From Yuukianura sp. NJ FZ-2021 (taxonomy: Eukaryota): a DNA stretch of 64,000 bases. The position numbers were made by a program, and so were the translations under genes. Location: assembly GCA_046563655.1 (NCBI GenBank), contig CM102290.1, positions 5,642,001 to 5,706,000 of the forward strand. Direction: 5' to 3'. The notes beneath the pieces are model-generated. The model saw nothing but the letters and a program-made list of their open reading frames with translations, did no database searches and was not told where the DNA came from. Within the stretch, counting starts at the first letter, position 1. Every line of letters starts with the position of its first letter. Positions 10,746 through 35,905 of the stretch are shown here, one piece after another.

Positions 10746-13700
10746 CTACGGTGTGACGTTATCTTCGTCAGTGTCAGCTTGTTGTTGGGCGGGCCGTCGT
10801 CGGGCGGGCAATTGTTGGGCTGCCCACGGCGGGCCCCAAGTACGAGGTGGTGAATTCGGTGGAACAAGGACGAAACCGGGCGGGGGTCCTCTCACAATGG
10901 CGGAATTGTCTCCCAAAAACTCCAACTGCAAAGCCTCCTGGACACTGATTCGTTCAATCGCGGTTGTCTGGAAGAAATGTCAAGGTCATTAGACTCCAGT
11001 CTTAAGTGCAGCAATTAGTGTAAGGAATTTGGTCAACAACTTACAGTCCCAGTTGTTTTAACGTAGAAGACTCGGTCAGCCACACTCACGAAATCACGAC
11101 TAAATGTCGTACAGAAGAACTGAACATTGTCTCGGTTTCCAGTTTGTTTCAAAAGGCGTGCGACGCTTCCGCGATATTGTTCGTCCAAAGCCTACATCAA
11201 AAATGACCTCATGAAAAAAAAAAGTTGACCTCGTGACGATAAAAAACGTTGACCTCTTCTTACCTGGTCAATTTCATCGAACAAGTAGATCTTGCTGGGA
11301 CACGAGTCCTGAACAGCCAGAAGAAAAGCAATGGCCAAAACTGAGCGTTGTCCTCCAGAAAGTGTGCGAATGTCATGCCGAATGTCATTTCTTCCAATCA
11401 GCTCCAACTTGGCTCCAAGAAATTTCACATTGCCCCAGGCAGCTTCACTCTCCGCCTACAAAACAATGGAATCTAAATCCGGAGGGATCTAGATCCGGAT
11501 TTATTGAACCGGATTTGGGATTTATCCTCAGAATATCCGAAATCCGGATTTCAAAATGTTGAATCCCGATTTTCCTTTGTATATGTTGGTATTAGCGGTA
11601 ATAGAAAATTGGATTTTGATGAAAAACGAGAAGAAATCCGAAACCGGATTTCCGGATAAATCCGAAATCCGGATTTGAGATCCCTTTGAACTCGTAAACA
11701 TGAGGAGAGTGAAATAGATTGAAGATTCATTGGCTACTCACGTCTGGTCCAGCGTTGGAAGTACTCAGAGAGTACTCCTCATTCTCATTTTCACTGTAGA
11801 GCGTTAACTCGGCCCTCTTGTTGTCATGGTGATTGCCACTCCCTGTGGCAATTTCAGTGTAAATATCCGGAAAGATGATCTGGATGTTCTTGATGATCCA
11901 CATGGAAAGACTTGGTCCACAGTCAACGATCAACTCCACAACTTCCTTGGCTCTCTCCAACCTAAAAGTTCAAATAAGTTATTGAACTTGAACAATTTGA
12001 ACATTTCAATTCCAACTTACGATTCCTTAGCTTGGAAAAGTTGATCCTCCAATTTCGCCACTTCAACACTGATCTTGTCGAGATTCAGAAGGCGTCGGAA
12101 TGGGAGTTCCGCTTTTTTGAGCTCCTCCTTGATAGCCAAGAGTTCTTTGAACAAATCTGTAGAGGATTTTGCGAATTCGGGCATCGTGAGCCCAGTTTCC
12201 AAAGTCAGTTCAGTTTCGTCTCTGCCCAGTTTCCGAACTTTATCCAGCAGAGATCGTTCCAGTTCTCCAAATCGGTCGTACCATGCTGCCTCCAGATCAG
12301 CTTTTGCTTTGACCAACTTTTCTGAACTTTGATGTATTAGCTCTTGAGTTTTTCCAATTTCGTCAGAAAGATGCTTCTCCTAAATTTTTTTTGAAAAACT
12401 TGAATATTGTTGAAACCCGAAGGGACATAACGATAAGCACGCCAACATGTAAAAGTTACCTTTGACGCAGCAGCAGCTTCCTCTGCCTCAAGCTTCTTCA
12501 ACGTTTCCAACAGATTGAGCTTCACCTTCTCTTCATCTTCCAAAAGTTTCTGAATATTGGCAAAACTCGTCCAATTTGCCGCAAGGTTTCCACTGCCAGA
12601 GCTCCCGGCACTCGAATTCCCCATGCTAAAAATCAAATAACACAACAATTATTATTTTTTTATAACAACTGAATTCTAGAAAATGAGAATTTGAAAATTT
12701 TTTAAATCTAAAAAGTCGTTTACGCAGAAGCCAAGTATCTCCGTTGCAGCCGCAGTCCGAGCACTTCCTTCTCCAGTTCCTTTCGTTCCGTCATCACTTT
12801 TTCGTATTCCAGCTTCGCTGCCGAAAGTTTCTTCTTTTCTTCCTCCCGGGCAGCAACGGGATTCTCTCCTGGTCTCGAAAATTCGTTTCGAATGTCCTCT
12901 TCAATCAAATTGATCCGCTCTCTCAAAATTTGCTCCGCTTGACGCTTTTGGGTCACCGCAATCAACAGATTCGGCAGACGAGCTTCGGCTGAAGCAAGTT
13001 CAGCAATCAGTCCGTCGCACTTCGTTTTCAGGGCTTCGATTTCCAGCCTAATTGTAACAAAAATTTGAAGAGAAAAAAATTTTAAGTAAAAGTAAAGATT
13101 TGAAGTAAATTTGAGTAAATTTTGGTACATTGTGTGCTTTCACTCACTCTAACTTTGATGCTTTCATTTTGATTTTCTCCAACGCAGCAATCCGAGCTGA
13201 ATTCTGTTGAGTACAAGTAGCTTCTTCCTTGTTGACCGCCTTCAACTGCTTCACAAGTTCCGTCTGCTTCTTCAATAACTCCACTTTCGTCTTGTGAGCT
13301 CGAAGGACTGACTTTGCAGGGTCCCGATATCCACCTAAGTTCAATCAAAATCCTTAAGTGAGTCTGACATACCCTTAAGGGCCATAATCAAGGTTCCTTG
13401 ACAACGAAAAATGAATTTTTTTAACAGGTTGAGTACTACCTCGCTTGTTGACAAAAAATAAAACAAAAATTATTGGTACCAATCCAAAATATTGGTACCA
13501 TCGTATGTAAAATTTAAAAAATTTGGCTCTATTGTTATGACTACGATACCATGGAATGAAAGACACTCTTTTTTTTTTTGCAAAATGAACAAAACATGAG
13601 GTATTCCTCAACCTGTTAATGCAAATCAAAGTCACCAACCTTGGCGCTAATGACCTTGACTTGATTAAATATTGAAGTCTGACCTGTAATAGGGCCGTTG

Positions 13701-16677
13701 CTCCTCACAGTGTCTCCGTCGATAGAAATAAAAGTGGCGCGAATTTTTGGATTCGGTTTAACTTTAAAGACGTCTGGAACGAGCAAGTAGTTGTTGAAAA
13801 TCAGTCCCATGGAATTTGCCACCTCCGGTCTGTAGTTCAATTTTTGTACAAGACGTTCCGCACGTTTCATCCGTACATACTGGTCCGGTATGGCTTTGAA
13901 TTGTTGAATATTCCCTTCCACGAGGACGTTTATTTCGCCAGGATACTTCCTCATATTGTACTCTTTGACGATCCGATTCCCGGTGAGCCGACTGTCCACT
14001 ATGTGGTGATACATCTTCTTAGCAGCACTCACTTCCACAGCAGTCTCAAGTTCCTCCGGTACAGACATTATGTTCTCAAACACGACGCCATAGTAACCGG
14101 CAGCAGCAGCCCTGTCTTCTGCATTGGCCGAACGACGGAACGACTCGATTATGAGAGGAACACGACTGTACGATTCAAAGTTGTAGCCCATGTACATCCT
14201 AAGAGAAGTGTCCACTTGACGTAACTTATCTCTCACGGTGTCCAGCTCACGCTGAACTTCAGCTTTTCGGTCCCATACCTGTAAAATATATAGTCATAAA
14301 CATTATTTACTGATTTATAAACATGGATTATTGAATTTAGGTTATAAATAATTTATAGAAACTTATAGAATTTATAGAAGTCCTGTCCCTTTTCGCGAGA
14401 GCGGAAATCCATTTTGTTACGGCTCTCGCAATTGGTCGATTTCAAATCTGTGACGTCACTCTCCAAACTTATAGAAATTGTGAGCCGTGTCTGTAAATTC
14501 TGTAAATCCTATAAGTTTCAAAAATGACGTCACTACCTGCCCTAAATTGTATACTTTCTATAAAATTCTATAAATTCTCTATAAATTTATACTTTCTATA
14601 AAATTCTATACTCTCTATAAATTCTATAATTTCTATTAGGGATGCCGCGATGAATCGTTCGAGCGATGAATCGCCCGCGATTCACCCCCTTTCGTGTTTT
14701 GGGCGATGCACTAGAATCGCCCTTTTTCAGATATGAAGAATCGCTTGAATCGCGATTCATCAAGCGATTCTAGAAAATCAGTTTTTTGCCCATTTCTCCA
14801 CTTATTTTTTGAAATTTTGAAGAAATTCGAGCCGGTGTAAACAATTTTTTGCTGAAAATTGTGGCTTTAGATTAGGTTATTAGTTTAAACAACAGCATGT
14901 AACTAGGAAACACACTTTTAACCCATAATTTCCATACGGAGATAGTGAGAAACACCAGGCGCCTGGTGGAAACGTCATTCATTTGGAACGAATGGTGAAT
15001 CGCGATGCATCGCGATGCAAAACGGCGATGCATCGCGAAGGCGATTCAGGAGGTTGTAAGAATCGCTGAATAGGCGATGCGGGAAAATCCTCGAATCGCG
15101 GCATCTCTAATTTCTATAAATTCTATGCCTTCTATCAATTCTATGCTTGCTTTCTATAAATTCAATAATCGCTATAAATTCTATAAACGATATAAGATAC
15201 GTACGTCGTTACAAGAAACTTGTGGGGTTTTGTTGATATTGTGCAGATCCATTTTGTACCCCTCTATCTTGCCCCGGTTGTCCGAAATCAGCGTCCAGTT
15301 ATCCTGCAATTCCTTAAGCACTGAAGCGATACCGTCTTCCTCCTGTTGGAATTTTTGTTGAGCCAATGTTCCTTGCTGCTTCACGTTCTCCAACTCCATC
15401 TTCAACTTCTCAAGGTCAGCTGTTTTCTTCTTCTTCAGATTAGCCGCGTTGGCTACCGTTCCACGCCCAGCTACCTCCATCAGAAAGTCCACTTTGGCAA
15501 TGGATTTGGCCACTTTGGAATACGTTGCTTCTTGTTTAGCTTCCAGACTCTTGAGCTGGACTGCCTTCATGGCCAAGTTGTCTTCAACTGTGCTCAACTC
15601 CTTAGTCACATCGTCACAAGCTGCCGGTGGAGAAGACATTGTGCGGCGAGGCAAATCGTTCTTGAGGGCAGTGACACGCTGAATAACGGAAGTGAGTCTC
15701 TCATTCATCCTTTCCTTCCGAAGTGTCAGTTGGTTCAGTTCTCGAGAAACTTCGGTCAATTGAGAGTCCTGTTCACCCAACTTCCGGTTCATAACGCCAA
15801 CATTTTCTTGAAGTCGACCGATCAGATCCAAAAACTTCTTGGATTTCGGGCCAGCCTGGTCACGTCTCTCCTTGTGCTTCAGGAACTCCTTGAGAACGAT
15901 GCAGAAGTTGAGAGTGTCGCGTTGTTGTGTTAAAGCCTGGTGTTTCGTAATGACATCTCTATCGTCTTCGTATTGTTTCAGTTCCTCCTCAATATACTCC
16001 ACTTCAAGCTCAAGTAAGGTCACGTTGGTTTCGTATGGTGCGACTTCATGAAACAATCCGGCCTTCCACTCTTCAGTTCCTTTGAAGTTGGTAAGTTCCT
16101 TTAACATCTTCAAGCGTATTCCATCAGCATCAGTAGCAAAGCGACCAATGTCCCCTTGATTGATCTTGTAAATGCAATTGACAGCTTGAGATATGAGCAT
16201 AGGGTGGTGCTTTGGATCGAACTGTTGGCCATTCAAGTAGAATTTCGGGGCTCCCGTCTTTCCGAATTCGCACTTGAACGTAGCACGATCCGGAAGAGCG
16301 TAGTCTTTATTCCTATTATCCAGCTCCACTTGGATATTTGCAGTGCCGTTGTTCATCCTTCGATTTGCATTAGAGACGAGCTCATGGACAGCCTTCTCAT
16401 TCATGCGCCCCAACGTGTTCGACAGAGCCTGCAAATGTCAGAAGTGTTACTGCAAGTCGACTGTTAAACGTTATCAAATAGTCTATAAGTCTATGATAGA
16501 CTTATAGACTAAGATGGACTTATGACAACTTACGACATCGATGGCTTGGAGTAGATTGCTCTTGCCGGCTCCGTTGGGACCGATAATGACATTGAGTCCA
16601 GTAAGAACCGGATCAAGTAAGCGCACCTCGTTCTGATGTCCCTTGAATCCACTGACCTTGACCTTGGTAATGCTCAT
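10746..16677 (-). CDS. Divergent SMC3-like (cohesin) ATPase, ~11 exons, roughly 1250 aa
   Basis: Walker A GPNGAGKSN, Q-loop YKINQGDI and long coiled coils. SMC3-type hinge GYYGVV...AVEVSAAKKMYHHIVDS...PGEI...SIDGDTVRSNGPITGGY. Signature LSGGQRSVLAIA, Walker B/D-loop YLFDEIDQALD and SMC3-type QFFCTTF. Confidence 0.88.
11483..11685. mobile_element. MITE in an SMC3-like intron (AGGGATCT TIRs, internal ATCCGGAT motifs)
   Basis: Inverted termini agggatctagatccggattt ... aaatccggatttgagatccct. No clear TSD. Confidence 0.6.
13375..13659. mobile_element. Palindromic MITE family member (inverted copy at 37500-37797)
   Basis: Termini caaggttccttgacaacg ... gtcaccaaccttgg and inner inverted repeat ttaacaggtt/aacctgttaa. 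Collinear similarity to the reverse complement of 37500-37797. Confidence 0.8.
14340..15190. mobile_element. Repeat element with tttataga/ttctataaa arrays (related copy at 45110-45470); hosts a nested MITE
   Basis: The core gtgacgtcac..tttgaaatc..ccaat..gagcc is shared in reverse complement with 45210-45280. Flanking (aaattctata)n arrays. Confidence 0.65.
14637..15109. mobile_element. hAT-type MITE with 8-bp TSD
   Basis: TIRs TAGGGATGCCGCGAT / ATCGCGGCATCTCTA, perfect flanking duplication ATTTCTAT and subterminal gaatcgc motifs. Confidence 0.9.
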
Positions 16678-19231: not shown

Positions 19232-21159
19232 TCTTGTTCTTGTGGTGAGCAGGAACAACCTAAACACAAAAGTTATTTCGTCACGATTAGTAATCAGCAC
19301 CACAATTGCAACAGTTCCCTCCTACTTAACTCAAAGGCACACCGCGCTTTACTGTCGTCGGTTCGGTTTTAAAACGTTTTGTTTTCAATGAAAAGTGAAA
19401 CTATGAACTGAACGTTGACCCTGGACAAGTTGTCACCCACTGTAGTATGTCACAACCAAACTGTCTCTTCGATGCTTGTCACAACGTTAAGTTCGGGAAT
19501 AGTCATGAACATTCTTGCCTAACAATAACTTGTTGACTGACAGTGGATTCCTCCTTCCAACTTGGAAGTTCCAAGACTGTTACTCTGTAATGGAAAATGA
19601 CAGTTGAAATTAGACTTTTAATTATAAACAATTTGCTGCCTTGTGACCCATTAAACATGAGCCTCCTGTACAATTCCCATTACCTAATCAATAATGGACC
19701 ATAAAATGAGAACTACCGTCCAAGTATCAACATCAGTACATTGACATCCAGTCATAGTACTACGTCCTCCTTTGTTTACAAAGTTCTAATTTACAACTGC
19801 ATGAGTGGGTCAAGCGACATAGACTAACTATTTCTGCCATTCCCATCGTTATGTTTGGGTCATTAGCACCAACTACTTAGTTTATAAATTGATGAATGGT
19901 TGGATGACATACCCTCGGAGGACAGAGTGAGGCTGGATGTAAACAAAACAAAGATGAATGACTACACTATGACTTTTCTAGTAAGTTGAAAGTGACCTCT
20001 GCTAGTGTCGAAATGGTCGTAACTGGTCAAATGCACAACAAAGTGATGTCCGGGATGTCGACCGTTAGAATGTTGTTCCCACCGAATACCGACATGAGTG
20101 AGGATATGAAGATCGATGATTGTGAAGGACGTTCTGCAGATCAACTGAGATTTTGGCAACACATAAGAGACAGGCAAAATTGGGGCTAAAAAATACAAAA
20201 GTGGGAACTTTTGGCTCCACTAAATTCTGGAAGGTGTCTCTCACTTGGTAAAGACTCAAATGCAAGGAACAATAAGGTCAATTACTAATTAGTTTAGTGG
20301 ATAACTGCCAAGTAGGTTATGTCCAGTGCTTACTGAAGTATGGACATTGATGACAGAAAGAAACGTTGCTGAGACGAACATTTGAGATGTGCTTAATTGA
20401 AAAGTGTAAAGTTAGAATCATTGGAGATCCACTTTTGGAAAGTGGTGACCTCTGACCTTTGTGAGAAGTGAATGAAGCATAGGACTTTGTTGTTGTTTAT
20501 TTTGGTGAGGAGGATATGCGAGGGTGTTAAGTGGTTGGTTAGTTGCGGTTATCAGACAATGAACCACTTCGGTTCTCTGTCAATAAATTCAAACCATCCT
20601 CATTCTAAAACTTTCCTCAAACTCACCAATTCAGTTTCCGTTTTTTACATTTTCTCTTTTTCGGGTTTTCAATTGACTAAAGTCTCAAAATGACCAAATG
20701 TATGACAAAAATCCTGGACTAAATCGGATGCTTCGGATTTTTAGTTCGATAGACTTGTTTCAAGTCTGAATGAAATTTCAAGTTGAAATGCAAGTGAGTG
20801 GAATGTGTGGATGATCTGTGTTTAATTTCATTTGCATCTTGTCAATTCTTGATCTGGAAATCAGAAGAGTCTGGATGCGACTATGGCATGTTGCATTTTG
20901 CATTGCCACATGCGATGAATGACCTCCACATTTACATGTTACAATTTTAGTCCGACATTCCGAAGTTCATAGGTTCGTAGGTAGACTGAACTAGTTAAAG
21001 ATTTAGTTTAATTTTATCGCTGAGTCAACGTAAGTCCAGTATCTCGAAGATCCAACACTACCCACAATAAGTCGTGACCTCTAAAACGTTCTCGTGACGT
21101 TTAAAACATTATTGTGGTGACCTTTACGATTATTGTCCTGTCGTGTTATTGTTGTTGCG

Positions 21160-21532
21160 ATGAGTCCGAATTCGGGTCAAGTGAGACACTGTGAGGCTGG
21201 AAGTGAACTGGAGTTCGGTGTGACGGAGCGCGGGAAGTTGAGTTTGTACCTTGGCGGCTACAGTTTCATTCAGGAGAGACAAGGACGAGGGGGGAAAGTG
21301 ATCTGGAGGTGTGTTGAGTACACGACGAAGATGCGGTGCACTGGACGATGTCACACCATTGGCAACACTTACGTCCACTCTGGACACCACAACCATCACA
21401 AGGTCATCCGACCACCAACAATAGTCAGAGGTCACTGTTCAAATTGCCATCTTCCCACGTTGGGATTTCAGCCGCGCTACCCCGTCGGAATACCACTCTT
21501 CGCAGGGGGTGCTCAAATCATCCCACTTCCGG
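21160..21532 (+). CDS. FLYWCH zinc-finger exon (candidate 5' exon of the BTB gene)
   Basis: FGVTERGKLSLYLGGYSF...VIWRCVEYTTKMRCTGRCHT...GHHNH matches the FLYWCH consensus. ATG at 21160; phase-1 donor G|gtaagc at 21533. Confidence 0.8.
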
Positions 21533-21689
21533 GTAAGCTCAACACTCTTAACCTTTGACCCAAGTCTTTCTCACATAGCTAACCGCTGATCTGATTTTAA
21601 GCCATTTCGGTATTTGGGTATCCGGGGATCAGGATTAGGGTATTCCGGAATCAGGCTATTCCTGACTAAATTCCTGAGGTGCTTTAAAT

Positions 21690-22079
21690 CAGGGTTGCTG
21701 CTTTTTTTTAATTAAAAATCATGATTTTTTTTACTGTATTCGAGATTTTTTTTATTTAATCAAGATTTTTTTTGATTTAAATCAAATATACAATTTTGCA
21801 CGCTTAAGACCGAGAAAAATGGAAGTTGTCAATTTTACAAGCACCAACTACTTTTAGATGACACATCATCAGTTTAAAAATAGTCAAAGTTCAGTCTTTT
21901 AGAAAAATTGAAAACGATAAAATACTTTTTTTTTTCACGAAAAATTGTCGGATTTAGGCGAAATTTTGCTGAAAAAGCAAATTTTGGTCAATTTTGTGTA
22001 TTTGATTTAGGCATTGATTTAAAAAAAATTGATTAAATCAATGATTTAAATCAGCTTGCTTTAAATCAAAGCAGCGCTG
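21690..22079. mobile_element. hAT-type MITE (same family as 34623-35041, inverted)
   Basis: Termini cagggttgctg / gcagcgctg, 7/8 TSD ctttaaat/ctctaaat and subterminal gatttaaatc motifs. Confidence 0.8.
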
Positions 22080-23275
22080 CTCTAAATTGAAGTGAATTTG
22101 GTTGCGGGGATTAGGGTACTTTAATTGAATTGGAGGTGGGTACTATTCCGGGGGATTATGGAACCCTGAATTGAGTTGAAGGGGATTAACTGAAAGTGGG
22201 CTAGACAATGTTAATTCGGTATGTTGTAAATGTGTTTTGTTGAATTCGGTATGTTGTAAATGTGTTTTGTTTTGATGTCATAGGTCAGAAGGTATGATAG
22301 AGATGAGTTGTTGACTGTGTTTGGAGATGTGAGAGAGTGTTTGAGGGAGGAGAGAGGGGAGAGATGAAACAATGGACCAGAAAGGAATTAAGGCTGTGAA
22401 ATGTTTGCGTCTTGCGAGATGTGGGTCATCATGCCTCCTGCCCACCTTCCTCCCCAACAATTGCAACAATCACTCCCCTCTCTGCCTTACAAGTCCAAGT
22501 GGAAAGTGGGCCACTGACCACTTGACACTTCCCGGGAGTCGGAGGAAGTTGTCACTTCCCATCCACTTATCATTAACGGAGATGGACTCTGAGCTACCCG
22601 AAGAAAGGCCTTTCCTAGTACTCTCTTAGTCACTCTACTCCTAATCACTCTAGACTGGAAATGGTCCGTTCAAAAGAGGCTGGCAACATGATTAGTCAGG
22701 CTCAACACAAAGTCCACGATGTCATCATGCTCCAACTGACTTCGGACTGACACGCACATTAGTCAACAAATCTCCTACATTCTTCCTCTCAATCTCTCTG
22801 ACCTTGTCATCTGTACAGGCAGGCGGGCAGTTGGGTTTGCAGGCAGGCAGGAGGTCAAATACCCAGGGGAAGAGTGGAATAGTCAAACTCTGGATCCGGA
22901 ATCTGTGAAGATCCGGAGTTTGACTATGCTAGTTGCGGGCAGTTTTTGGTGTGGAGGGAGGGAGTTGGAGGTCAAGTGCCCGGAGGAAGAGTGGAGACAG
23001 ATTCCAGATCCAGAGTTGTTAATTCGGCTGTAAGTTGAGAGGATGTGGAACTGTACCTGGATTATTCTAAAGAGTGGAACCCGTGTCGGGGAAGAAGGGG
23101 AAATTCCAACCCCCAACTAAACCACGGACAGTCTGCCCCTCTCCGAACAACCACTCTCTCCCAACTGATTCAGTTGACTCTTACCAGCCTCAGTAGCAAC
23201 TACTCTCCTCTTCCCTTATCAACAACAACAGTGACTGTGACCTCTGTGACCTCTCTCCCCCCGCCCCACTCTTTC

Positions 23276-23774
23276 ATGAGTTCAGTACTTTTGAATCTAA
23301 AGACCGAGTCCAGTCCCATCCCTTTCCCCACTTATGCCTCCCCCAGTTCCGGAGGTGGCAGTGTGGGCAGTCCCAGTGGCTGTGGTGGGCCCAATAGTGC
23401 TGAGGCTAAAATGTTTCTGTCCCACGGCGGAAGACCCACCAAAGGAAACGGCCGGAAGAGGAAGGGGGTGGACGAGTATGCAGCCGAAAATCGGATTGAC
23501 TTTACTTCGCGGTCTATAATTCGAGATGGGCAGTTGGTTCGGATTTTGGTGTGTCGGTTTTGTTGTCAGTCGATCGGAGCAAGGTCGGATCGGATCAAAG
23601 AGCATTTAGCTAGCAAGAGACATCAGAAACTGAAGTTGGAAGCATTTCGAGAGGCAGCAGAAGCAGGGCGTGACTTGTCCACAGAGTACAGTGACGACAG
23701 TGCCTCAGGCCTTCTACCCGAACCACCGATTACGATGCTCAAGTTCCCTGGAAAAGCATTGGCTCACTTGCTCG
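23276..23774 (+). CDS. BED/CGGBP1-like C2H2 zinc-finger exon (candidate 5' exon of the BTB gene)
   Basis: NLS GRKRK followed by LVCRFCCQSIGARSDRIKEHLASKRH. ATG at 23276, with an alternative phase-1 acceptor at 23231. Phase-1 donor G|gtaaac at 23775. Confidence 0.75.
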
Positions 23775-24537
23775 GTAAACGCATTCTCATTTTTTCGGAA
23801 ATCCCTCGGGGCTAAAACTGAAACCCTCCGGGCTTAAGTCGGGGCATTTAACAACTTTTATTGTCTTTTCGGTCCGAAGGGCCGCCGGGTATTTGGAAAA
23901 AGAAGGGCGGGTATTTAGAAAAAGAAGGTGATGGGGGCGGGTATTTCGAAAAAAAATGGTGGGGGGGGGGTCTTGAGAAGGGGGGGGCCAAGAAGAGGTT
24001 CACACTCACCTACTTTCGATATGCTAATTCCCGTCTTTTTTCGCAGTAGTGGCCAAGTAGGAATGACTATCCTCTGAACATCTCTTGTCCACGAGTCCGG
24101 TTCTCACAGATTTAATTCAACCACTCAACTTGTGCCCATTTTTTTTATTATCTGCTCTACTACGACGTTGTTCGGACACTTTTAAATGGGCGGGCGGGTG
24201 ACCCGGATGAGGGGAGCGGGTAAATCAGGGCTTAATTGAGCAGATTGATTCTGATTGGCTTGATTGCGTGAGTCAGAGGGGGAGAAAGTTTTGGTTTGGG
24301 GAGACTGTTGCCATGGGGATGATCTCTCCGATGACACCCTGCCCTGCTTTTTACTGTGATAACCTGATCCAAGACTCCCATCTTCTTGACCTCTCAGAGG
24401 TTATCACTCCCCTAACTTCGGATTCTCTTTCTAAATGTGAGAGTTGTTAACTGTGAGAAAGAGACTAAATTTAGTCTCATGCAGACTAAAAATGAGTCCC
24501 ACTTCAGTCCGATTAATATTTGAACTTTGTTTTTCAG

Positions 24538-24636
24538 ATGGAGAGCAACAGCGAGAAGGGAGACAGTCATCACATGAGTTGACGCCCGAACCAGAGGAAC
24601 GGAGACAGTCCATGCCCACCCCGCCCCCACTCAGAG
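24538..24636 (+). CDS. 99-nt symmetric phase 1-1 linker exon of the BTB gene
   Basis: ttttcag acceptor and G|gtaatt donor around the open frame DGEQQREGRQSSHELTPEPEERRQSMPTPPPLR. Confidence 0.65.
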
Positions 24637-26159
24637 GTAATTAAGAGTCTAATTAGGTGGGTATTCCCCAGTGGGGACTGGGTATTCCCCACTTCCACCT
24701 TCAAATCCCCGTCTTCGGATGGAAAGTGAGGGGAATGAGATGAGCCACTTGTTGGATTTGTGCACAGACCTAAGCACATTCTTCACGTTCCACTTTCCAC
24801 AGATCTGGTGGGGGAGGGTCTGGCAGGGGGGGGGTTTGTGTAGCAAGAGAGTGTATTAGCCTGGGGAGGCTGCTGTAACCAGGACACACTCCGCCAGTCG
24901 GGGTCAAAGGCCTCCGGATTAGTCCAGACTCTTAGTATTTAATGAGTGATAGACTTCTGAAGTATTGCGAAAGCCCTTCAAGTCCCCCCCCCCCGTAAGA
25001 GGGGGACTTGAGGGTCGTAGCTCGTGTCAACATGGGCATGAGATGCGTCCGTGGGATTGGCTCATGCTCTCCTGTGTTCCCAATCTTCCAATCTCCAAAA
25101 CCCGTTCTGTGTGAAGAGAAATTGAGGATAGCGGAGAGGGAAGTGTGGGGTGGATTTGTGCTATTTCGTGCCATAGCTTTACTTATGTACTTCATATACT
25201 GTGCAAAAATGAGAATGATGTTAGTAAATCCTTCTACTTTGGCCTTCCATTGTGTTAAAGTAGGGACTCTCCTTCCTCTTCCCACCAAAGTCCCACACTC
25301 ACTCACCTCCGATTTCTTTTTCTTACCTTGACTAATAGCCCTACCCACTCCCCATTTCTACCCGCCGGGGATTTGATATTACCCGGGTTTTTCAAATTCA
25401 GCAGTTTTAGCCATCTCTTCCGCTCTTTTTTTTTGTAAAGTATTGTTCTTGTAGACTGGATTTTCCTGTCGATTTGAGTCCATTCCAACCTGTTGAACCA
25501 CTCAGATCCCCCCATCTTGTCTGAATACTTTCTCCCCCTGAGGTCAATTCTCATCCGATTTGTGTCATTTGGTTCAAGTGTGTGACGAAACACATGGACT
25601 GAGAGAAGTGTTCGCTCTGATTGTTCGGATGAGAGACGCCTCAAGTTGATGTTGATGGTGGAGGGTGGTTGGGAGGGTGGATCTACCTGTTGCAGGAGGG
25701 AAGTCAAAAGGAAACCGAATCTCTAACCCCCCCATCTCTCAACCCCCCCCCCCCTCATCCGTATCCCCCTCCACCAACCGAAACCACTCTGATGGCTCCA
25801 CTTGACTTCCTCCGAGGGACTAAAATTATTCACCCCCTTGAGGAGCAGTTGGACACGCTCCTCTGCTCCCCTCTCGCAACAGGTCCATTTCAACTCTACA
25901 CTCTCTTTTCCTTGTTTTGAAGCACAACAAGTGGGATCCACTTTACACAATTTAGAACCGAGCCACAGATCCGCTTCGGAGGGAGCAGGATTAGAAAAAC
26001 ACTTCTCTCTCTCTCAAATCACTTCAAAACACACCAACTCAAAAGAGACAAACACCAATAAACTCCAAAACTTTCAACTTCACAATTTTGAAATATCACT
26101 TTTTTAAAATATAGGAAAACCACAATTTCAACAAGTTCAAAATGTAGGAACATCCACGA

Positions 26160-26470
26160 CTTTAAAATTTAGAAGGATCACAATTTCAAAGTATTATAGA
26201 AAAATTAATTTCAAATTTAAAAGGATCACAATCTCAAAATTTATAAAGATCACAATTTCAAAATTTAAAAATCATCGCCATTTCTGAAGTTTAGAAGATT
26301 ACGATTTCAAAATTTAAAAAACATTACCATTTCTGAAGTTTAGAAGATTACGATTTAAAAATTTAAAAAACATTACCATTTCTGAAGTTTAGAACATCAC
26401 AATTTCAAAATTAAAAAACATTACCATTTCTGAAGTTTAGAAGATCACAATTTCAAAATTTAAAAAGATG
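26160..26470. repeat. Degenerate ~49-bp tandem repeat
   Basis: Repeats of aatttcaaaatttaaaaaacattaccatttctgaagtttagaagatcac. Confidence 0.8.
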
Positions 26471-27066
26471 AAAAATCAAGATGCGAAAAAGTCGCATACT
26501 TTTATTTCGAGTTTGGTCAATGAATGGTCACCAAAACATGAATGTTGATGTCGTTTTTGGAATTTTGAAAAATTGTGGATGTAACAAAATGAAATCGAAA
26601 CTACATATTTAAAAACTACTTAATTTTTTTTTACAAAGTTATAGTTGAAACTTTGGGCGGGGAATAATGTGAGTTTGAGTTGTTGACTTTTTTACACTTT
26701 GGTGTGTTTGTTGTTGACCAAGTTGTGAGTACGTGCAGAACAGGTTGTTGTAATGGAAAGTGGGAGTCCACCTTCCAGGTAGTCCCCGCTTCCACTCCAT
26801 CCGGCATTTCCAGTCCATTGGAATCACAATAAAGTCACGGGCATCTCCCTCACTCTCTCTTTTAAACATTCCCGCACTCTTTTGTACGCTCACTTCTGCA
26901 CCGCTATTCTTCTGCACATAGTATGAACACACTAAACCAAAACTAACCTGCCAAACTAACTTATGTGCGAAAAAATATATTGTAGTCCACAATTTACTGT
27001 CCGTAAAAATCCCCGATCACAAATGTCCCGTTACGTCTCTAACCCATTCTATTTTTTTTTACTTAG

Positions 27067-28644
27067 GTTTCCGGATTCCGTCTCCGTCAGCCCGCTATCT
27101 GCCTGGCTCTCACATCCCTGGGATCATCCCTGGCCCCGCCCACGTCTCCCTCGTGGAAGCCACCACCCCACCCCCACCCCCGCCCCGCAACGACGCCCCG
27201 CAGCAACAACTCCTCTGCGTCCGGTGGGGCAACTATGACTCCAACATCGTCTCCATGTTCACGAAACTCCGGTCACAAGAACACTTTGTGGACGTGACGC
27301 TTTGGTGCGAAGGGCGGACGATCAAGTGTCACAAACTCGTGTTGTCCGCATGCTCCGTCTACTTTGAGCAGCTCCTTGTGGACAACCAAACCATCCAGTC
27401 CAACCATCCAATCATCTTCCTCAAAGACATGAAGTTCTGGGAAATTGAAGCTCTCGTGGAATTCATGTACAAAGGAGAGACAAGCATTCACCAGGACAAG
27501 CTCCAGTCACTTCTCCGGGCAGCCGAGTCACTCCAGATCAAAGGCCTTGGATCACCGCCCCCTGGCGGACAACACGCCAACAATGACATCAACAACAACA
27601 ACTCTTCTGCAACTCAAGTCCAGACATCAGCTGTTCGACCGGGACGGACACAAGGGTTGTCTTCGAATGACGACCAGAGTGATGGGAGCATGGACATGAC
27701 GACGGGCAACTTCAGTTTTTCCACGCCGCGGGCAAATAGTCCGCTTGGCGGGCAGCAGAACAGTCAGAACATGGGGATGGACCTGACCAATCACAACGCG
27801 GCTCCTGTCAAGTCCTCCGACTTCCTCACGACGACTGTGACGGGACAACCCCTGTCTTCGTCTATTATCATGAACCTCCAACACAATTCGTCCGCTAAAC
27901 GACGCAAAAAGGAGACGCCGCGCAGAATTGGACTCCTACCGAGATCTGTCCACTCCTCTGGGTCCACGCGACAGCATGCCCCGTATGCACCCACCTTTGG
28001 GCAGGACGAGGCAGAGGACGATGGTGCTGGGTCAGAGGACGACTCACCCGCAACGAAAACACACAATCTACTTGATGTATGCACAAATATTCACTCAAAT
28101 ATCAACAAATATGCTCAGATATGCTCAATATGCCAAAATATGCTCCATATGCTAAAATATGAACAATATGCAAAAGTATTCTCAATATGCCAAATAGGCT
28201 GAATATTCAAAGTATGCTCAATATGCAAAATATGCTGATGCTGAAAATGCAAAAATGTGCTTAATTTACTAAAATATGCAGAAATATGCTTAATATGCTC
28301 GCTGCATATGGAAAAATATGCTGACTACTCAAAATATAGTGAATATGCTAAATATGCTGAATATGCAAATATACGCAGAATACGTTTGAATATGGCGAAG
28401 ATGTTTGAATATTTGTGACTTTGTTTAGGTTAATGGTGCTGGAGGTGGATCTGATGACGACTCAATGACAGAGATGGAGAATCGGTCCTTGATCATGGTA
28501 AAACTTCCAGCTACTCTTGGATACTTTGGCAGTATTTTCGATATTTGGGCAGTATTTGACTTTGTTTTTGACTTGTAGGTGGAGAAGGCGGAGCCGACGG
28601 AGGACTATGACGACGGAGAGTCGGAGGAGGGTGACAACGCATGA
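27067..28644 (+). CDS. Tramtrack-group BTB/POZ exons (27067-28076, 28429-28497, 28579-28644); no C-terminal DNA-binding domain
   Basis: QLLCVRWGNYDSNI...HFVDVTLWCEGRTIKCHKLVLSACSVYF...HPIIFLKD...ALVEFMYKGE...LLRAAESLQIKGL. Phase-1 acceptor at 27066. Ends VEKAEPTEDYDDGESEEGDNA*. Confidence 0.9.
28080..28415. repeat. Intronic low-complexity (aatatgc)n array
   Basis: Repeated aatatgct/aatatgca units fill the BTB intron. Confidence 0.8.
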
Positions 28645-29218
28645 CGAACAAAGGAGCCCTTCGTAGCTGGCCCTTAGACATATCCAAAGTATATTTAGCC
28701 CAGTAGCTTAAGGGTCCTTTTGTACTCGGAGTTGACACTGTCTTTTGTACTTTCGTCCAAAGCCTTAACTAGCCTTAGTCAATTCCAAAGCGAATCGTTC
28801 CGAATCATTCCGATTTGAATTCCAGCGCAACTCAAGGGACCAACCTCTTTTGTACATAGCGACTGCGCAACTTGTGGCCTTAGTCGGTTGACTCCAAGCA
28901 ATAACAAGATAATCACTCTACTGAGGCACAGCGGCCTTCACCTTACTCTTTCAGCGCATTTCAGAAAATATAGAAATATTATACAAATATTACATATACA
29001 AATATTTTGTCTGTTCTTTCTTTCCTCAGTCTCTGTCCAACCTACTCTTTTGTTAGGTTATTGTTAGGCTAACTAATCTGTTAGGTTAACTCTTGTGCTC
29101 CACTGGACGCAAGTGGACTAAATAAACTACAAATAACCTTCCGGTTCCATGCAATATGGTCAAAACAACTTAGTCAAAAACTTAAATGGTCAAATATCAA
29201 CAAAACCACCCTGAATCT

Positions 29219-29365
29219 ACTATAATATTATAATTATTAATTAATATAATTAATTACAATTATAATATTATGGTGTACACTATAATATTATAATTATTAA
29301 TTAATATAATTAATTACAATTATAATATTATGGTGTACTATAATATTGTAATTATTAATTATACT
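29219..29365. repeat. AT-rich 60-bp tandem repeat (~2.5 copies)
   Basis: tataatattataattattaattaatataattaattacaattataatattatggtgtac is duplicated exactly. Confidence 0.9.
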
Positions 29366-29633
29366 ACAACTCTATTTCGTCCATGAGAAGTTGAATTTTT
29401 ATCCATCTATCCGGTGGATAGCACCTGGACAAAATATTTTAAAGGGGCATATCCAGCAATTATAGTATCAATATAATACTGTTGTTGGCATTCTTGACCT
29501 TTCGTCCAAATTATTTTGACCTTTTAACTTTTTGATCGAATTTTTTTGACCATTTGGCCTACGAAGTGTCACTATGTTGCAAATTCAGTTTTATTCCAAA
29601 AAGTTGAAGAGTTTAAAAGTAAATTGGTTGAAT

Positions 29634-30456
29634 TCAAACTTCGGGGCGGAAGTTGAGGGGTTTGTGGTTCGGGGCTTTGTGTGTGTCGTGCTGTTTTTCC
29701 TGGAGATTTGAGAAGAGGACAGTTCCGTAGTTGTCCAGAGGGATTTCCACTGTCTTGGACATTGACTCTGTCTGAGCCACCCCTTGACCACCGGAGAATC
29801 CCGCCGTTGCCCCACCTCCGATCCCACCTTAAATCAAACAAAAAACACTTTTCACCATCTCTTTTTTAGAAAAGGGAGTTTGTCCTTTTATAAAAAGTTG
29901 AAAAATGCAAATAGTTAGTTGTTTTTACCGTTTGCGATGTGGTTGTTGGCTGCCGTCCATGCCGTGGGAGGTCGTTGGCCATAGGAATGAGCTGATCCGC
30001 GGGAGTCAGTCTTCTGATACAGCGTTTGATCGGCCATTCCTGGACGGCGGATTCCGACCTGGACACCTTTGCTCTCAGAGTCCGACACGCTAACGCCACC
30101 AGCGCCTGAAATCAACCAAAAGTGTCAACTTTTTCTAAAACGGAAGCATTTTCAGCCATTTTCAACCATTTTACGCATTTTCAGCCATTTTCAACCATTT
30201 TAAGCATTTTCAATCATTTTAAGCATTTTCAACAATTTTCAAGTATTTTCAAGCATTTTCAATTTTTGAAGCAAAGTTTATGTTTTAGAATGGACTGACC
30301 GTGAGCTACTGCGTGGCCGCGGTTGACGTTGATGTTGATTCGGTCGTCGATGTCGGTGGATGTATCGGTTCGGTCGGTATCGGTTGGATTCTGGACAGAA
30401 GTGGCGTTGACGAGAGCCAACATGGCTACAAACAGAAGAAGGAGTGACATGTCCAT
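29634..30456 (-). CDS. Small secreted Gly/Ser/Thr-rich protein of unknown family (3 exons, ~175 aa)
   Basis: Signal peptide MDMSLLLLFVAMLALVNA. Two phase-1 GT-AG introns join open frames ending ...KPLNFRPEV*. Confidence 0.7.
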
Positions 30457-31334: not shown

Positions 31335-32667
31335 TCACTTCCCGTCTGACACGAAGACGTCGAACAGTTCGTCTCCGTCGAGATCCAGATCGCCCGGCGT
31401 GTCATGTTCATCCACCAGCTCCCCATCGAACTTAAACTTGACCAGACTGGGATTGACGTTGTTTTTGGCAGCGAACAGTTGAGCTAGCTTCGTGAACTGG
31501 TCAGTCTTGCGCATCTCATAGACAGTTTTACTGCGATGGTGACTGCTTTGCACTTTGATTCGGATGAGCAGCGGGTCTCTGACTTTGGAATGCGGCTTCT
31601 CTGTTGGCGAGAGTTTGAAAGCTTCCAGCAAAACGCCCGGGGCGATTGACGCCTGCTTCAGAGTCAGCTGATCTTGAAACGGCTTGGCAGGATCATCGTC
31701 GTAGCCAATCACGAGGTCGCTTGGTTGCAGTCCCACTTTTTCTGCCAAAATCCGTCTGATCTCGTAGCAGTAGTCAGTCTGTCAAAAAGTTTTGAATACA
31801 AAAATTTGAAAATGTGTCAATAACTTCAGACGAAACCAAATCTCAATCCAAGGAATTACCTCGCACAGTTTGAAGCTGATCATCTGGAACTTATAGTTGA
31901 CACGAACGTAGAACGGCATTGCGGGGATTGGAGAGTTCGGAACGGTCGGACTCGGACAGTCAATGTCAACGACTTCCGGTGGCAAAGGATTGACTGGTGC
32001 AGGATCCTTTGTTTTCTTGATCTTTCGTGCCTAAAACATTTGAAATGGTAGAAATTGTGACACGTTTTACGCTGAAAGTGTTCATTGAACTTGAAAGTGT
32101 TTACCGTTGTCGGTGTCGGTAAGGTTGTTGGCAGGGGCGGTTTTTTCCAAGGTAGAAGTTTGTTGCATGACTGAAGCAGATCATCTAGCTCCTGCTCTTC
32201 TCGGGCGAAACGTCTGAAAAAGGACGAATAAGTGAAGTGACTCAAAACTTTAACAAGTTTTCAGCTTTTCATTGAAATTATTTAGTGCAGGCTGGCTTAC
32301 TCCATTTCTTCAGCACGTTCTTTCGACACGAGCTTAGCTGGAACTGGCTTCGGAGGAGCATCGGAAGGCAACTCCAGATTCTTTCGCACCTCCTTCCGCT
32401 TCTTCGTTTTAATCTTCTGATGGCTCAACTTGTGTCCAATGTTGGCAAACATTTCTAAAAATGAAAGAAGTTGAAAGTGGATAAGTGTGGCTGCAAGAGC
32501 GTAGAATGAGTCAACTTACTGTCAAAATCAGCTACGCTGCTGTGACCCGTTGCTTCATTGTCATCAGCCTCACCATCTGAGTCGGACAGGGTAATGACCT
32601 TGTGGAACTTGGGTTTTGGATTTGGATTTGGGGGTGAGGGGTTTGCCTTTGCTCGCCGACGCTCCAT
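31335..32667 (-). CDS. NFATC2IP: NFATC2IP/NIP45 (Rad60/Esc2) family SUMO-like domain protein
   Basis: C-terminal Rad60-type SLD IRIKVQS...KFKFDGELVDEHDTPGDLDLDGDELFDV, preceded by a second ubiquitin-like domain. N-terminal SIM-like KVITLSDSD. The start codon is inferred. Confidence 0.8.

Positions 32668-33705: not shown

Positions 33706-35905
<2,200 letters not shown>

What the first reader, a model, noticed from the sequence alone, without database searches (positions are those of the whole stretch)
21160..28644. Apparently inverted mod(mdg4)/lola-like locus: DNA-binding exons lie upstream of a start-less, finger-less tramtrack-type BTB
Seen: the BTB exon begins at a phase-1 acceptor (27066), has no in-frame ATG before the BTB, and the gene ends at 28644 with an acidic tail and no zinc finger. 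Upstream on the same strand are a FLYWCH exon (ATG 21160, phase-1 donor 21533), a BED/CGGBP1-like finger exon (ATG 23276, phase-1 donor 23775) and a 99-nt phase 1-1 linker exon. Any of these can join the BTB exon in frame. Established: in arthropod tramtrack-group genes such as mod(mdg4), lola, br and fru, the BTB is N-terminal and the variable FLYWCH/BED/C2H2 exons are 3'. Inference: this is a permuted design, either alternative promoters choosing an N-terminal DNA-binding module for a shared BTB or a single FLYWCH-finger-BTB protein (a possible phase-1 acceptor exists at 23231). A further possibility is mod(mdg4)-style trans-splicing of BTB to these out-of-order exons.
Basis: partly seen in the sequence, partly recalled or inferred. 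Interest (0 to 1): 0.85.

Follow-up and report, generated by a model that had tools for sequence, protein, structure and literature searches.

The report
Springtail BTB gene with N-terminal finger
This is most likely one ordinary multi-exon gene for a BTB protein whose single zinc finger sits in front of the BTB domain, a layout shared by a small family named so far only in springtails, while the neighbouring FLYWCH reading frame shows no sign of belonging to it.

Summary
The sequence features are all present at the stated coordinates. These are a FLYWCH ORF (ATG 21160), a finger exon (23276/23411-23774), a 99-nt linker exon (24538-24636), an ATG-less tramtrack-type BTB exon (27067-28076) and two short acidic tail exons ending at TGA 28644. 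All junctions are phase-compatible.

The "inverted mod(mdg4)/lola" reading is only partly right. Finger, linker and BTB exons are colinear, split codons included, with an annotated Allacma fusca protein (CAG7710418.1). An exhaustive search with the finger exon found 8 proteins that carry this finger N-terminal to a BTB, including Orchesella cincta ODM95938.1. So this is one gene of a small, undescribed finger-then-BTB family.

The finger is an atypical C-x2-C-x13-H-x5-H motif, about 95% identical between the window and the Allacma protein. It gave no zf-BED match.

The FLYWCH ORF has its own stop (21556-58). No relative was found, none of the family's proteins carries FLYWCH, and its nearest feature neighbours are stand-alone FLYWCH proteins of 117-139 aa. 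It is probably a separate gene, but its GTAAG donor keeps an alternative-first-exon reading alive (about 0.13).

There is no array of alternative DNA-binding exons. No RNA data could be obtained, so splicing is inferred from comparison alone.

The parts
21160..21558 (+). FLYWCH ORF: 132 aa, own ATG and own stop, with a consensus GTAAG donor at 21533 (phase 1). Probably a separate single-exon gene and not shown to belong to the BTB gene.
   Evidence: Pfam FLYWCH E 1.7e-11. No relatives in near or longer length classes. Atlas neighbours are stand-alone FLYWCH-only clusters of 117-139 aa. GC3 is 0.56, like host exons.
23276..23774 (+). Finger exon, the first coding exon. Conservation begins at the second Met (23411, MFLSHGGRP). 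It holds a basic patch GRKRKG and a C-x2-C-x13-H-x5-H finger. Phase-1 donor after 23774.
   Evidence: 95% identical to Allacma P0001 residues 1-121 and to P0121. All 10 ORFs of P0121's cluster stay alike up to ALAHLLG, and the 8 distinct C-terminal endings among them differ after it, which marks a conserved donor. Invariant C48, C51, H65, H71.
24538..24636 (+). 99-nt linker exon, phase 1-1 (ELTPE...PTPPPLR).
   Evidence: Colinear with Allacma P0001. A matching exon lies about 3.3 kb upstream of the BTB exon on metagenome contig L003 (2626-2697, tblastn E 1.2e-4 in a small database).
27067..28076 (+). BTB exon: phase-1 acceptor, no in-frame ATG before the BTB, tramtrack-type BTB (LCVRWGN ... 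HPIIFLKDM), conserved basic motif AKRRKKETPRRI, phase-0 donor.
   Evidence: Pfam BTB E 2e-25. 1737 relatives; the best is Allacma P0001 at E 5.6e-73, followed by lola, ttk and bab proteins. Exon boundaries are shared with P0002-P0004 and L001-L004.
28429..28497 (+). Predicted acidic tail exon 1 (phase 0-0).
   Evidence: Good acceptor and donor contexts, and the frame stays open. Relatives also continue into acidic tails (P0001; L003 7191-7340; P0141). The exact junctions are inferred.
28579..28644 (+). Predicted last coding exon, acidic, TGA at 28642-28644.
   Evidence: The only AATAAA in 28645-30000 is at 29121.

Best explanation
Positions 23276-28644 hold one conventional cis-spliced gene. 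Its first coding exon encodes a basic patch plus a single atypical C2H2-like zinc finger. This exon is spliced through a 99-nt linker exon to a tramtrack-type BTB exon and then to two short acidic tail exons. The product is 535-580 aa, depending on which ATG is used.

The gene belongs to a small family in which this finger always lies N-terminal to the BTB. The only named members are from springtails (Allacma fusca, Orchesella cincta).

Inferred mechanism: the BTB multimerises the protein, as tramtrack-type BTBs do. This brings several copies of the highly conserved basic-patch-plus-finger module together so that they bind clustered nucleic-acid or chromatin targets with avidity. The conserved KRRKKETPRRI motif probably serves nuclear import.

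The FLYWCH ORF 1.7 kb upstream is most likely an independent single-exon gene of a lineage-specific, transposon-derived kind. It is not a module of this gene.

Shown: the domains, frames and splice-site contexts; colinearity with an annotated relative; and recurrence of the finger-then-BTB order. Inferred: the actual splicing in this species, the start codon, multimerisation, the binding target, and the independence of the FLYWCH ORF.
For: - Colinearity. Allacma fusca CAG7710418.1 (P0001, 560 aa) runs finger, then linker, then BTB in one model. The window's conceptual join aligns with it end to end, with the split codons at the same places.
- Recurrence. Exhaustive phmmer of the finger exon over 1.84 billion representatives gave 11 hits. 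Eight of them (P0001, P0122-P0126, P0128, P0129) have the finger at the N-terminus and a Pfam BTB after it. One is an exon-only ORF (P0121). Two are unrelated: P0127 is a low-complexity match and P0130 is a caspase with other fingers.
- A contiguous ORF. P0122 (239 aa) sits on a 1002-nt contig, so finger and BTB are there in one essentially uninterrupted ORF.
- A conserved donor. All 10 exon-only ORFs of P0121's cluster stay alike up to ALAHLLG, and the 8 distinct C-terminal endings among them differ after it.
- The linker exon is conserved upstream of the BTB exon on L003.
- The window lacks the in-frame Met (MNSPPP) that relatives have at the start of the BTB exon. It has Ile there, so here the BTB needs an upstream start.
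- BTB tree of 81 rows. A branch with SH-aLRT support 98 sets 8 of the 10 finger-bearing rows and the 7 BTB-exon rows of presumed orthologues apart from the other 66 rows. A tree that holds all 17 of these rows together is 5.56 log-likelihood units better than the free tree, p-AU 0.676.
- FLYWCH. It has its own stop. No relatives were found. No FLYWCH occurs in any of the 8 family proteins. The nearest Atlas clusters are FLYWCH-only proteins of 117-139 aa.
Against: - No transcript evidence exists for this species, and no genome is held. Every junction is therefore inferred from comparison.
- The Allacma and Orchesella proteins are automatic gene models, and I did not check what supports them.
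- On L003 the finger exon is not found in the 2.6 kb available upstream of the linker exon. In that species it lies further away or is missing.
- The FLYWCH ORF carries the only consensus donor (GTAAGC) among 8 GTs after its domain. It is in the compatible phase 1, just 8 codons before the stop, and no AATAAA lies between it and the finger exon (only ATTAAA at 21711 and 22032).
- In the free BTB tree two finger-bearing rows (P0125, P0126; long branches) fall among ordinary tramtrack BTBs.
- The finger's family is undefined. The best Pfam match is sub-threshold and the best PDB profile match has E 0.23. DNA binding is assumed, not shown.
Confidence: 0.7

Rival explanations
1. Alternative first exons. 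Two promoters, near 21.1 kb and near 23.2 kb, give the shared linker and BTB exons either a FLYWCH or a finger N-terminal module.
For: FLYWCH-linker-BTB and FLYWCH-BTB joins are open in frame. The donor at 21533 is the only consensus-like GT after the domain and is phase 1. The ORF is intact, has a strong Pfam hit and has host-like GC3. It lies on the same strand 1.7 kb upstream.
Against: None of the 8 finger+BTB relatives carries FLYWCH, and in all 8 the match to the finger exon starts within 25 residues of the N-terminus. The FLYWCH ORF has its own stop 8 codons after the donor. No conserved relative of this ORF was found. Its feature neighbours are stand-alone FLYWCH proteins of the same size. 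An AT-rich repeat stretch (21.5-22.3 kb, 33-36% GC) separates it from the GC-richer block that starts at 22.3 kb. A one-in-three phase match is weak evidence.
Confidence: 0.13
2. A single long FLYWCH-finger-linker-BTB protein, with the FLYWCH exon spliced to the acceptor at 23230-31.
For: The 720-aa join is open in frame. The acceptor follows a pyrimidine-rich tract. The finger frame is open for 79 codons upstream of ATG 23276.
Against: Sequence upstream of MFLSHGGRP is not conserved among the 10 exon-only ORFs of P0121's cluster, and most of them start with a Met at or just before that point. The Allacma and Orchesella models start 0-22 residues before the finger.
Confidence: 0.04
3. mod(mdg4)-style trans-splicing, in which BTB-containing RNA is joined to the upstream FLYWCH or finger exons as C-terminal modules.
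For: Only the juxtaposition of FLYWCH and a tramtrack-type BTB. Trans-splicing at mod(mdg4) and lola is described in Drosophila (passages of PMC11426971).
Against: The BTB and tail exon donors are phase 0, whereas the only plausible acceptors in the FLYWCH and finger exons are phase 1 (my reading). No AG lies between the upstream stop and ATG 21160. Relatives show finger-then-BTB, not BTB-then-finger. Mod(mdg4) transcripts were reported only in Neoptera (passages of PMC5094011).
Confidence: 0.01
4. The finger exon and the BTB exon belong to two separate genes, and the Allacma model is a false fusion.
For: Gene callers emit the finger exon (P0121 cluster) and the BTB exon (P0002-P0004) as separate ORFs. 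In most relatives the BTB exon has its own in-frame Met.
Against: Seven further proteins carry both domains in one ORF, one of them on a 1002-nt contig. The window's BTB exon has no ATG before the BTB. The finger exon ORFs all end right after a conserved GT donor. The ATG-less linker exon is conserved.
Confidence: 0.05

Closest known systems
Tramtrack-group (TTK-type) BTB transcription factors of arthropods (lola, ttk, bab, fru, mod(mdg4), psq-type BTB-HTH proteins)
   Same: The BTB domain is of this group. The best named hits after the springtail proteins are insect BTB proteins at 45-63% identity. It carries a variant of the FxLRWN motif (LCVRWGN) and, from recall, the HPIIFLKD strand typical of the group. 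Such BTBs form hexamers (abstract and passages of PMC11426971).
   Different: In those proteins the BTB is usually at the N-terminus and the DNA-binding domain is C-terminal. Only CG6118 and bab2 are cited with a mid-protein BTB. Here a finger precedes the BTB, nothing recognisable follows it, and the gene shows no alternative 3' exons.
Allacma fusca CAG7710418.1 (BTB domain-containing protein) and Orchesella cincta ODM95938.1 ('Broad-complex core protein isoform 6')
   Same: Both have the same order: finger, spacer, BTB. The Allacma protein is colinear with the window's exons and is 95% identical over the finger exon. The Orchesella protein shares the finger at 60% identity and has a BTB.
   Different: Both are automatic annotations that name only the BTB. 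The Orchesella protein is a diverged paralogue-like member on a long branch. The Allacma tail is longer.
mod(mdg4) / lola complex loci
   Same: A FLYWCH-coding ORF and a TTK-type BTB exon lie on one strand within 6 kb.
   Different: There are no common 5' BTB exons followed by an array of alternative 3' exons. The locus has one FLYWCH and one finger only. The order is reversed, and no evidence shows that FLYWCH is spliced to BTB at all.
Long-spaced C2H2 fingers (Pfam zf-C2H2_2, the REI1/REH1 type; U1/JAZ-like fingers)
   Same: Cys2-His2 ligand pattern with H-x5-H. There are weak matches to zf-C2H2_2 in 8 of 8 members (best E 0.0024) and to the REH1 and ZFHX4 fingers in the PDB (E 0.23 and 0.43).
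   Different: All matches are below the curated thresholds. The flanking GGRPxK..RKRKG..EYAAEN and ARSDRIKEHLxSKRH motifs are specific to this family.

Membership tests
TTK-type BTB proteins | BTB/POZ domain | tested here: met
   Pfam PF00651 E 2e-25, 89.5 bits against a cutoff of 20.5.
TTK-type BTB proteins | N-terminal FxLRWN 'TTK motif' (as stated in PMC11426971) | tested here: inconclusive
   The window has LCVRWGN. The W and R are kept, but F>L, L>V and N>G. Family members vary ([FLY]x[LIV]xW...), and W is present in at least 90% of rows.
TTK-type BTB proteins | Closest relatives are TTK-group proteins | tested here: met
   Named hits are lola, ttk, bab and fru-type proteins at 45-63% identity. 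The PDB search is less specific: ZBTB17 fusion chains are best at E 1.3e-14, and the CG6765 BTB (8rc6) scores 1.1e-8.
TTK-type BTB proteins | Hexamer formation through the TTK-specific interface | not testable with these tools
   Structure prediction was not accepting jobs.
TTK-type BTB proteins | Usual architecture: BTB at the N-terminus, DNA-binding domain C-terminal | tested here: not met
   The BTB starts about 200 residues into the conceptual product, the finger precedes it, and no Pfam domain follows it.
mod(mdg4)/lola-type complex locus | Shared BTB exons plus an array of alternative DNA-binding exons | tested here: not met
   The window holds one finger, one FLYWCH and one BTB. None of 105 short ORFs between 18.8 and 31.2 kb has a Pfam hit at E up to 0.01.
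mod(mdg4)/lola-type complex locus | Trans-splicing or alternative splicing joins BTB to the variable exons | not testable with these tools
   No RNA run was listed.
FLYWCH zinc finger (ORF at 21160) | Match to the Pfam FLYWCH model above its cutoff | tested here: met
   PF04500 E 1.7e-11, 44.5 bits against a cutoff of 23.6, covering model positions 4-62 of 62.
   No zf-BED match in 8 of 8 members at E up to 10, and none in the PDB profile search. The only trace is an Atlas lead: a cluster with zf-BED on 22% of members at score 0.92, and a zf-C2H2_12 cluster at 0.93. CGGBP1 itself was not compared, because no sequence was at hand.
C2H2-type zinc finger | Two Cys and two His ligands, conserved | tested here: met
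   C48, C51, H65 and H71 are invariant in 10 of 10 and in 8 of 8 aligned sequences.
C2H2-type zinc finger | Pfam C2H2 model above its cutoff | tested here: not met
   zf-C2H2_2 best E 0.0024, 18.5 bits against a cutoff of 26.9.

The most novel reading that the evidence does not exclude
The FLYWCH exon and the finger exon are alternative first exons, each with its own promoter and ATG and each with a phase-1 donor. They would give one shared tramtrack-type BTB two different N-terminal nucleic-acid-binding heads. That would be an N-terminal mirror image of the mod(mdg4)/lola logic, in a basal hexapod lineage where Mod(mdg4) itself has not been reported.
Probability: 0.12. Interest if true: 0.7.

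Novelty: new variant of a known kind. Interest (0 to 1): 0.36.

Why it matters
Tramtrack-type BTB factors are described as N-terminal-BTB proteins that vary their C-terminal DNA-binding domains. This family places a very strongly conserved single finger in front of the BTB: about 95% identity between the window and the Allacma protein, against 55% for the BTB exon.

Domain-architecture surveys cannot see it, because no Pfam model recognises the finger. The two named members are labelled only as BTB or Broad-complex proteins. The family therefore adds a layout to the repertoire of the group and offers a compact protein for asking how a multimerising BTB uses a single finger.

It does not amount to a new mechanism of gene expression unless the FLYWCH exon proves to be an alternative head.

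Tried and rejected
- Own genome. None is held, so copy number and paralogues in this species could not be checked.
- Metagenome scan with the single BTB exon. 595 pattern matches, none confirmed. The scan with alignment A1 gave 5 loci. None holds a finger or FLYWCH match, and only L003 shows the linker exon.
- FLYWCH ORF. No relative was found in the near (72-231 aa) or longer (232-2000 aa) length classes. The tool needs shared 5-residue words, so this is weak evidence.
- Finger classification. The PDB profile search gave nothing below E 0.2. Pfam gave only sub-threshold C2H2-type matches.
- Structure prediction was not accepting jobs, so there is no fold comparison.
- Repeat search over 20000-27100 found no terminal inverted repeats that frame the FLYWCH ORF as a transposon. 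It found only intron tandem repeats and short chance-level pairs.
- The bacterial promoter/terminator scan is irrelevant for a eukaryote and was ignored.
- DNA comparison of L001-L005 with the window shows conservation only inside the BTB exon.
- Earlier findings of this scan: nothing by place, sequence or words.
- Literature. Three searches were run: 'TTK-type BTB' + arthropods; Collembola + BTB + zinc finger; FLYWCH + BTB + domain architecture + arthropod. None listed a paper on a finger-then-BTB family in springtails.
- In PMC11426971, 12 of 14 supplementary files (including supp7) contain none of Folsomia, Orchesella, Collembola, Allacma or Sinella. Files 13 and 14 were not searched.


Full report
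**What is in the sequence**

The window is eukaryotic and gene-dense. I scanned 85 of the 100 stop-to-stop ORFs of at least 100 aa. The 15 left out were the three focal ORFs, already scanned, and ORFs overlapping these or others in other frames.

Pfam hits in this scan:
- a citrate-transporter gene (+, 4.5-5.4 kb)
- an ankyrin/SOCS-box gene (-, 7.2-9.0 kb)
- an SMC hinge (-, 13.6-14.3 kb)
- a SUMO-like Rad60-SLD gene (-, 31.3-31.8 kb)
- a SMAD (+, 33.7-35.4 kb)
- a TAF1-like DUF3591 exon (+, 53.8-54.2 kb)

- The FLYWCH ORF starts at ATG 21160 and has a GTAAGC donor at 21533 (phase 1). It also has its own stop at 21556-58.
- The finger ORF has ATGs at 23276 and 23411 and a phase-1 donor after 23774.
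- The linker exon is 24538-24636 (99 nt, phase 1-1).
- The BTB exon starts at 27067 behind a T-rich tract and AG. It is phase 1 and has no in-frame ATG before the BTB.
- Two short acidic exons end at TGA 28642-44.
- Pfam confirms FLYWCH (E 1.7e-11) and BTB (E 2e-25). The finger gets only a sub-threshold zf-C2H2_2 match.
- All six joins I computed are open in frame.

**The finger, linker and BTB exons form one gene**

The best relative of the BTB exon is Allacma fusca CAG7710418.1 (P0001, 560 aa; E 5.6e-73). That annotated protein begins with the finger (MFLTHGGRP...), continues through a linker (...ELTPE...PTPPPLK) and then the BTB. The window's conceptual finger-linker-BTB-tail product (535 aa from ATG 23411) aligns with it end to end. 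The two split codons fall at the same positions.

An exhaustive phmmer search with the finger exon over 1.84 billion representatives gave 11 hits.
- Eight (P0001, P0122-P0126, P0128, P0129) have the finger within 25 residues of the N-terminus and a Pfam BTB behind it.
- One (P0121) is an exon-only ORF.
- Two are irrelevant: a bacterial repeat protein that matches the Gly/Ser-rich leader, and a mantis-shrimp caspase with other fingers.
- One of the eight is Orchesella cincta ODM95938.1, labelled 'Broad-complex core protein isoform 6'. The others are unnamed.
- P0122 (239 aa) lies on a 1002-nt contig, so there the two domains sit in one essentially uninterrupted ORF.

All ten ORFs of P0121's cluster run alike up to ALAHLLG, and the 8 distinct C-terminal endings among them differ after it. 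That marks a conserved donor. Upstream of MFLSHGGRP they are not conserved, and one has Leu instead of that Met with a Met eight residues earlier. The finger exon is therefore the first coding exon, with the start at or shortly before 23411.

The linker exon recurs about 3.3 kb upstream of the BTB exon on metagenome contig L003.

Relatives carry an in-frame Met (MNSPPP) at the start of the BTB exon, which gene callers use as a start. The window has Ile there, so in this species the BTB depends on upstream exons.

**A family, probably of single origin**

I built a tree of the BTB region from 81 rows. These were drawn from 145 sequences (141 stored proteins and 4 locus ORFs). Those matching fewer than 96 of the 122 query positions were dropped, leaving 134 rows with the window's own. 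Identical BTB regions among rows without a finger were then collapsed.

In this tree, a branch with SH-aLRT support 98 sets 8 of the 10 finger-bearing rows and the 7 BTB-exon rows of presumed orthologues apart from the other 66 rows. P0125 and P0126, both on long branches, fell on the other side. A tree that holds all 17 rows together is 5.56 log-likelihood units better than the free quick tree, with p-AU 0.676. One clade is thus compatible with the data, and is the best tree found, but it is not proven.

**What the finger is**

The ligand pattern is C-x2-C-x13-H-x5-H. Residues Y23, G40, C48, C51, R58, D60, R61, I62, K63, H65, S68, R70, H71 and K75 are invariant, and a basic patch GRKRKG precedes them. 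The finger exon is 95% identical between the window and the Allacma protein, against 55% for the BTB exon.

- Pfam gives only sub-threshold zf-C2H2_2 in 8 of 8 members and no zf-BED.
- A PDB profile search has nothing better than E 0.23 (REH1) and 0.43 (ZFHX4 finger).
- Atlas neighbours are mostly unnamed arthropod clusters. A zf-C2H2_12 cluster scores 0.93 and a cluster with zf-BED on 22% of members scores 0.92. These are leads only.
I could not compare with CGGBP1 itself or fold the domain.

**The FLYWCH ORF**

It is intact, its GC3 (0.56) is like that of host exons, and it has a strong Pfam match.

Evidence against its belonging to the BTB gene:
- It has its own stop 8 codons after the donor.
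- No FLYWCH occurs in any of the 8 family proteins.
- No relative was found in two length classes (this is weak evidence because the search needs shared 5-residue words).
- Its nearest Atlas clusters are stand-alone FLYWCH-only arthropod proteins of 117-139 aa.
- An AT-rich repeat stretch at 21.5-22.3 kb separates it from the GC-richer block that begins at 22.3 kb.

Evidence for its belonging to the gene:
- Of the 8 GTs after the domain, only 21533 has a consensus context, and it is in the compatible phase.
- No AATAAA lies between its stop and the finger exon. Only ATTAAA occurs, at 21711 and 22032.

I put about 0.13 on the alternative-first-exon reading, 0.04 on a single FLYWCH-finger-BTB protein and 0.01 on trans-splicing. 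The trans-splicing reading also needs phase-0 donors to meet phase-1 acceptors (my reading).

**Not a mod(mdg4)/lola-type locus**

The window has one finger, one FLYWCH and one BTB. None of 105 further ORFs of 45-99 aa on either strand between 18.8 and 31.2 kb hits any Pfam family at E up to 0.01. There is no array of alternative DNA-binding exons.

From passages of Bonchuk et al. (eLife 2024, PMC11426971):
- TTK-type BTBs carry an FxLRWN motif, form hexamers and are usually N-terminal.
- CG6118 and bab2 are the cited mid-protein exceptions.

From passages of Pauli et al. (BMC Genomics 2016, PMC5094011): Mod(mdg4) transcripts were detected only in Neoptera.

The window's BTB has the variant LCVRWGN. 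Its closest named insect relatives (61-63% identity over the BTB) are N-terminal-BTB proteins. Three of the four named ones I read (P0009, P0018, P0020) have a similar RRIRRSD...TIRFYMARKG region near the C-terminus, and the database's precomputed Pfam column lists the psq-type HTH (PF05225) for P0009.

**How it most likely works (inference)**

The BTB multimerises the protein. This clusters several copies of the conserved basic-patch-plus-finger head so that they bind repeated nucleic-acid or chromatin sites with avidity. The invariant KRRKKETPRRI motif downstream of the BTB probably acts as a nuclear localisation signal. The 99-nt symmetric linker exon could be skipped without breaking the frame. 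None of this was tested.

**Novelty and limits**

The proteins already sit in public databases, but only as automatic BTB annotations. Three literature searches listed no description of a finger-then-BTB family. Twelve of the 14 supplementary files of the eLife survey do not mention springtail genera; two files were not searched.

The family's range outside springtails is unknown. Only a single-sequence search was possible, and most members are unnamed. All splicing here is inferred from comparison, because no RNA run was listed and no genome is held.

Verdict: a real and conserved, mildly unusual architecture. It is a new variant of the tramtrack-BTB kind, not an inverted mod(mdg4) locus.

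Noticed in passing
window 26084-26480: Tandem repeats with periods of about 24 and 49 nt, very AT-rich (26-31% GC), inside the intron between the linker and BTB exons.
   Followed up: no
window 28077-28428: The predicted intron after the BTB exon is made almost wholly of degenerate ATATGC/AATATGCT-like short repeats. The BTB frame stays open through part of it (read).
   Followed up: no
window 22850-23017: A 29-nt direct repeat (22850 and 22967, 86% identical) and two short inverted repeats (22879-22927; 22886-23017) lie just upstream of the finger exon, inside the GC-richer block that starts at 22.3 kb. This may be promoter-proximal or a repeat fragment.
   Followed up: no
window 4523-5373 (+), 7196-8990 (-), 13619-14293 (-), 31338-31781 (-), 33706-35407 (+), 53809-54234 (+): Neighbouring genes by Pfam: citrate-transporter (CitMHS) exons, an ankyrin/SOCS-box gene, an SMC hinge exon, a SUMO-like Rad60-SLD exon, SMAD MH1 and MH2 exons, and a TAF1-type DUF3591 exon.
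   Followed up: no
L005 9962-10723: A metagenome contig holds a more ordinary tramtrack-type BTB ORF (MDELFNVRWNNY...) with an in-frame Met close before the BTB and no finger match in the 10 kb upstream. It falls with the BTBs that lack a finger in the tree.
   Followed up: partly
BTB exon start: window 27075-27077; L001, L002, L004; P0002-P0004: Relatives have an in-frame Met (MNSPPP / MSSPPP) near the start of the BTB exon, where the window has Ile. In those species a BTB-only isoform from an internal start is conceivable.
   Followed up: partly
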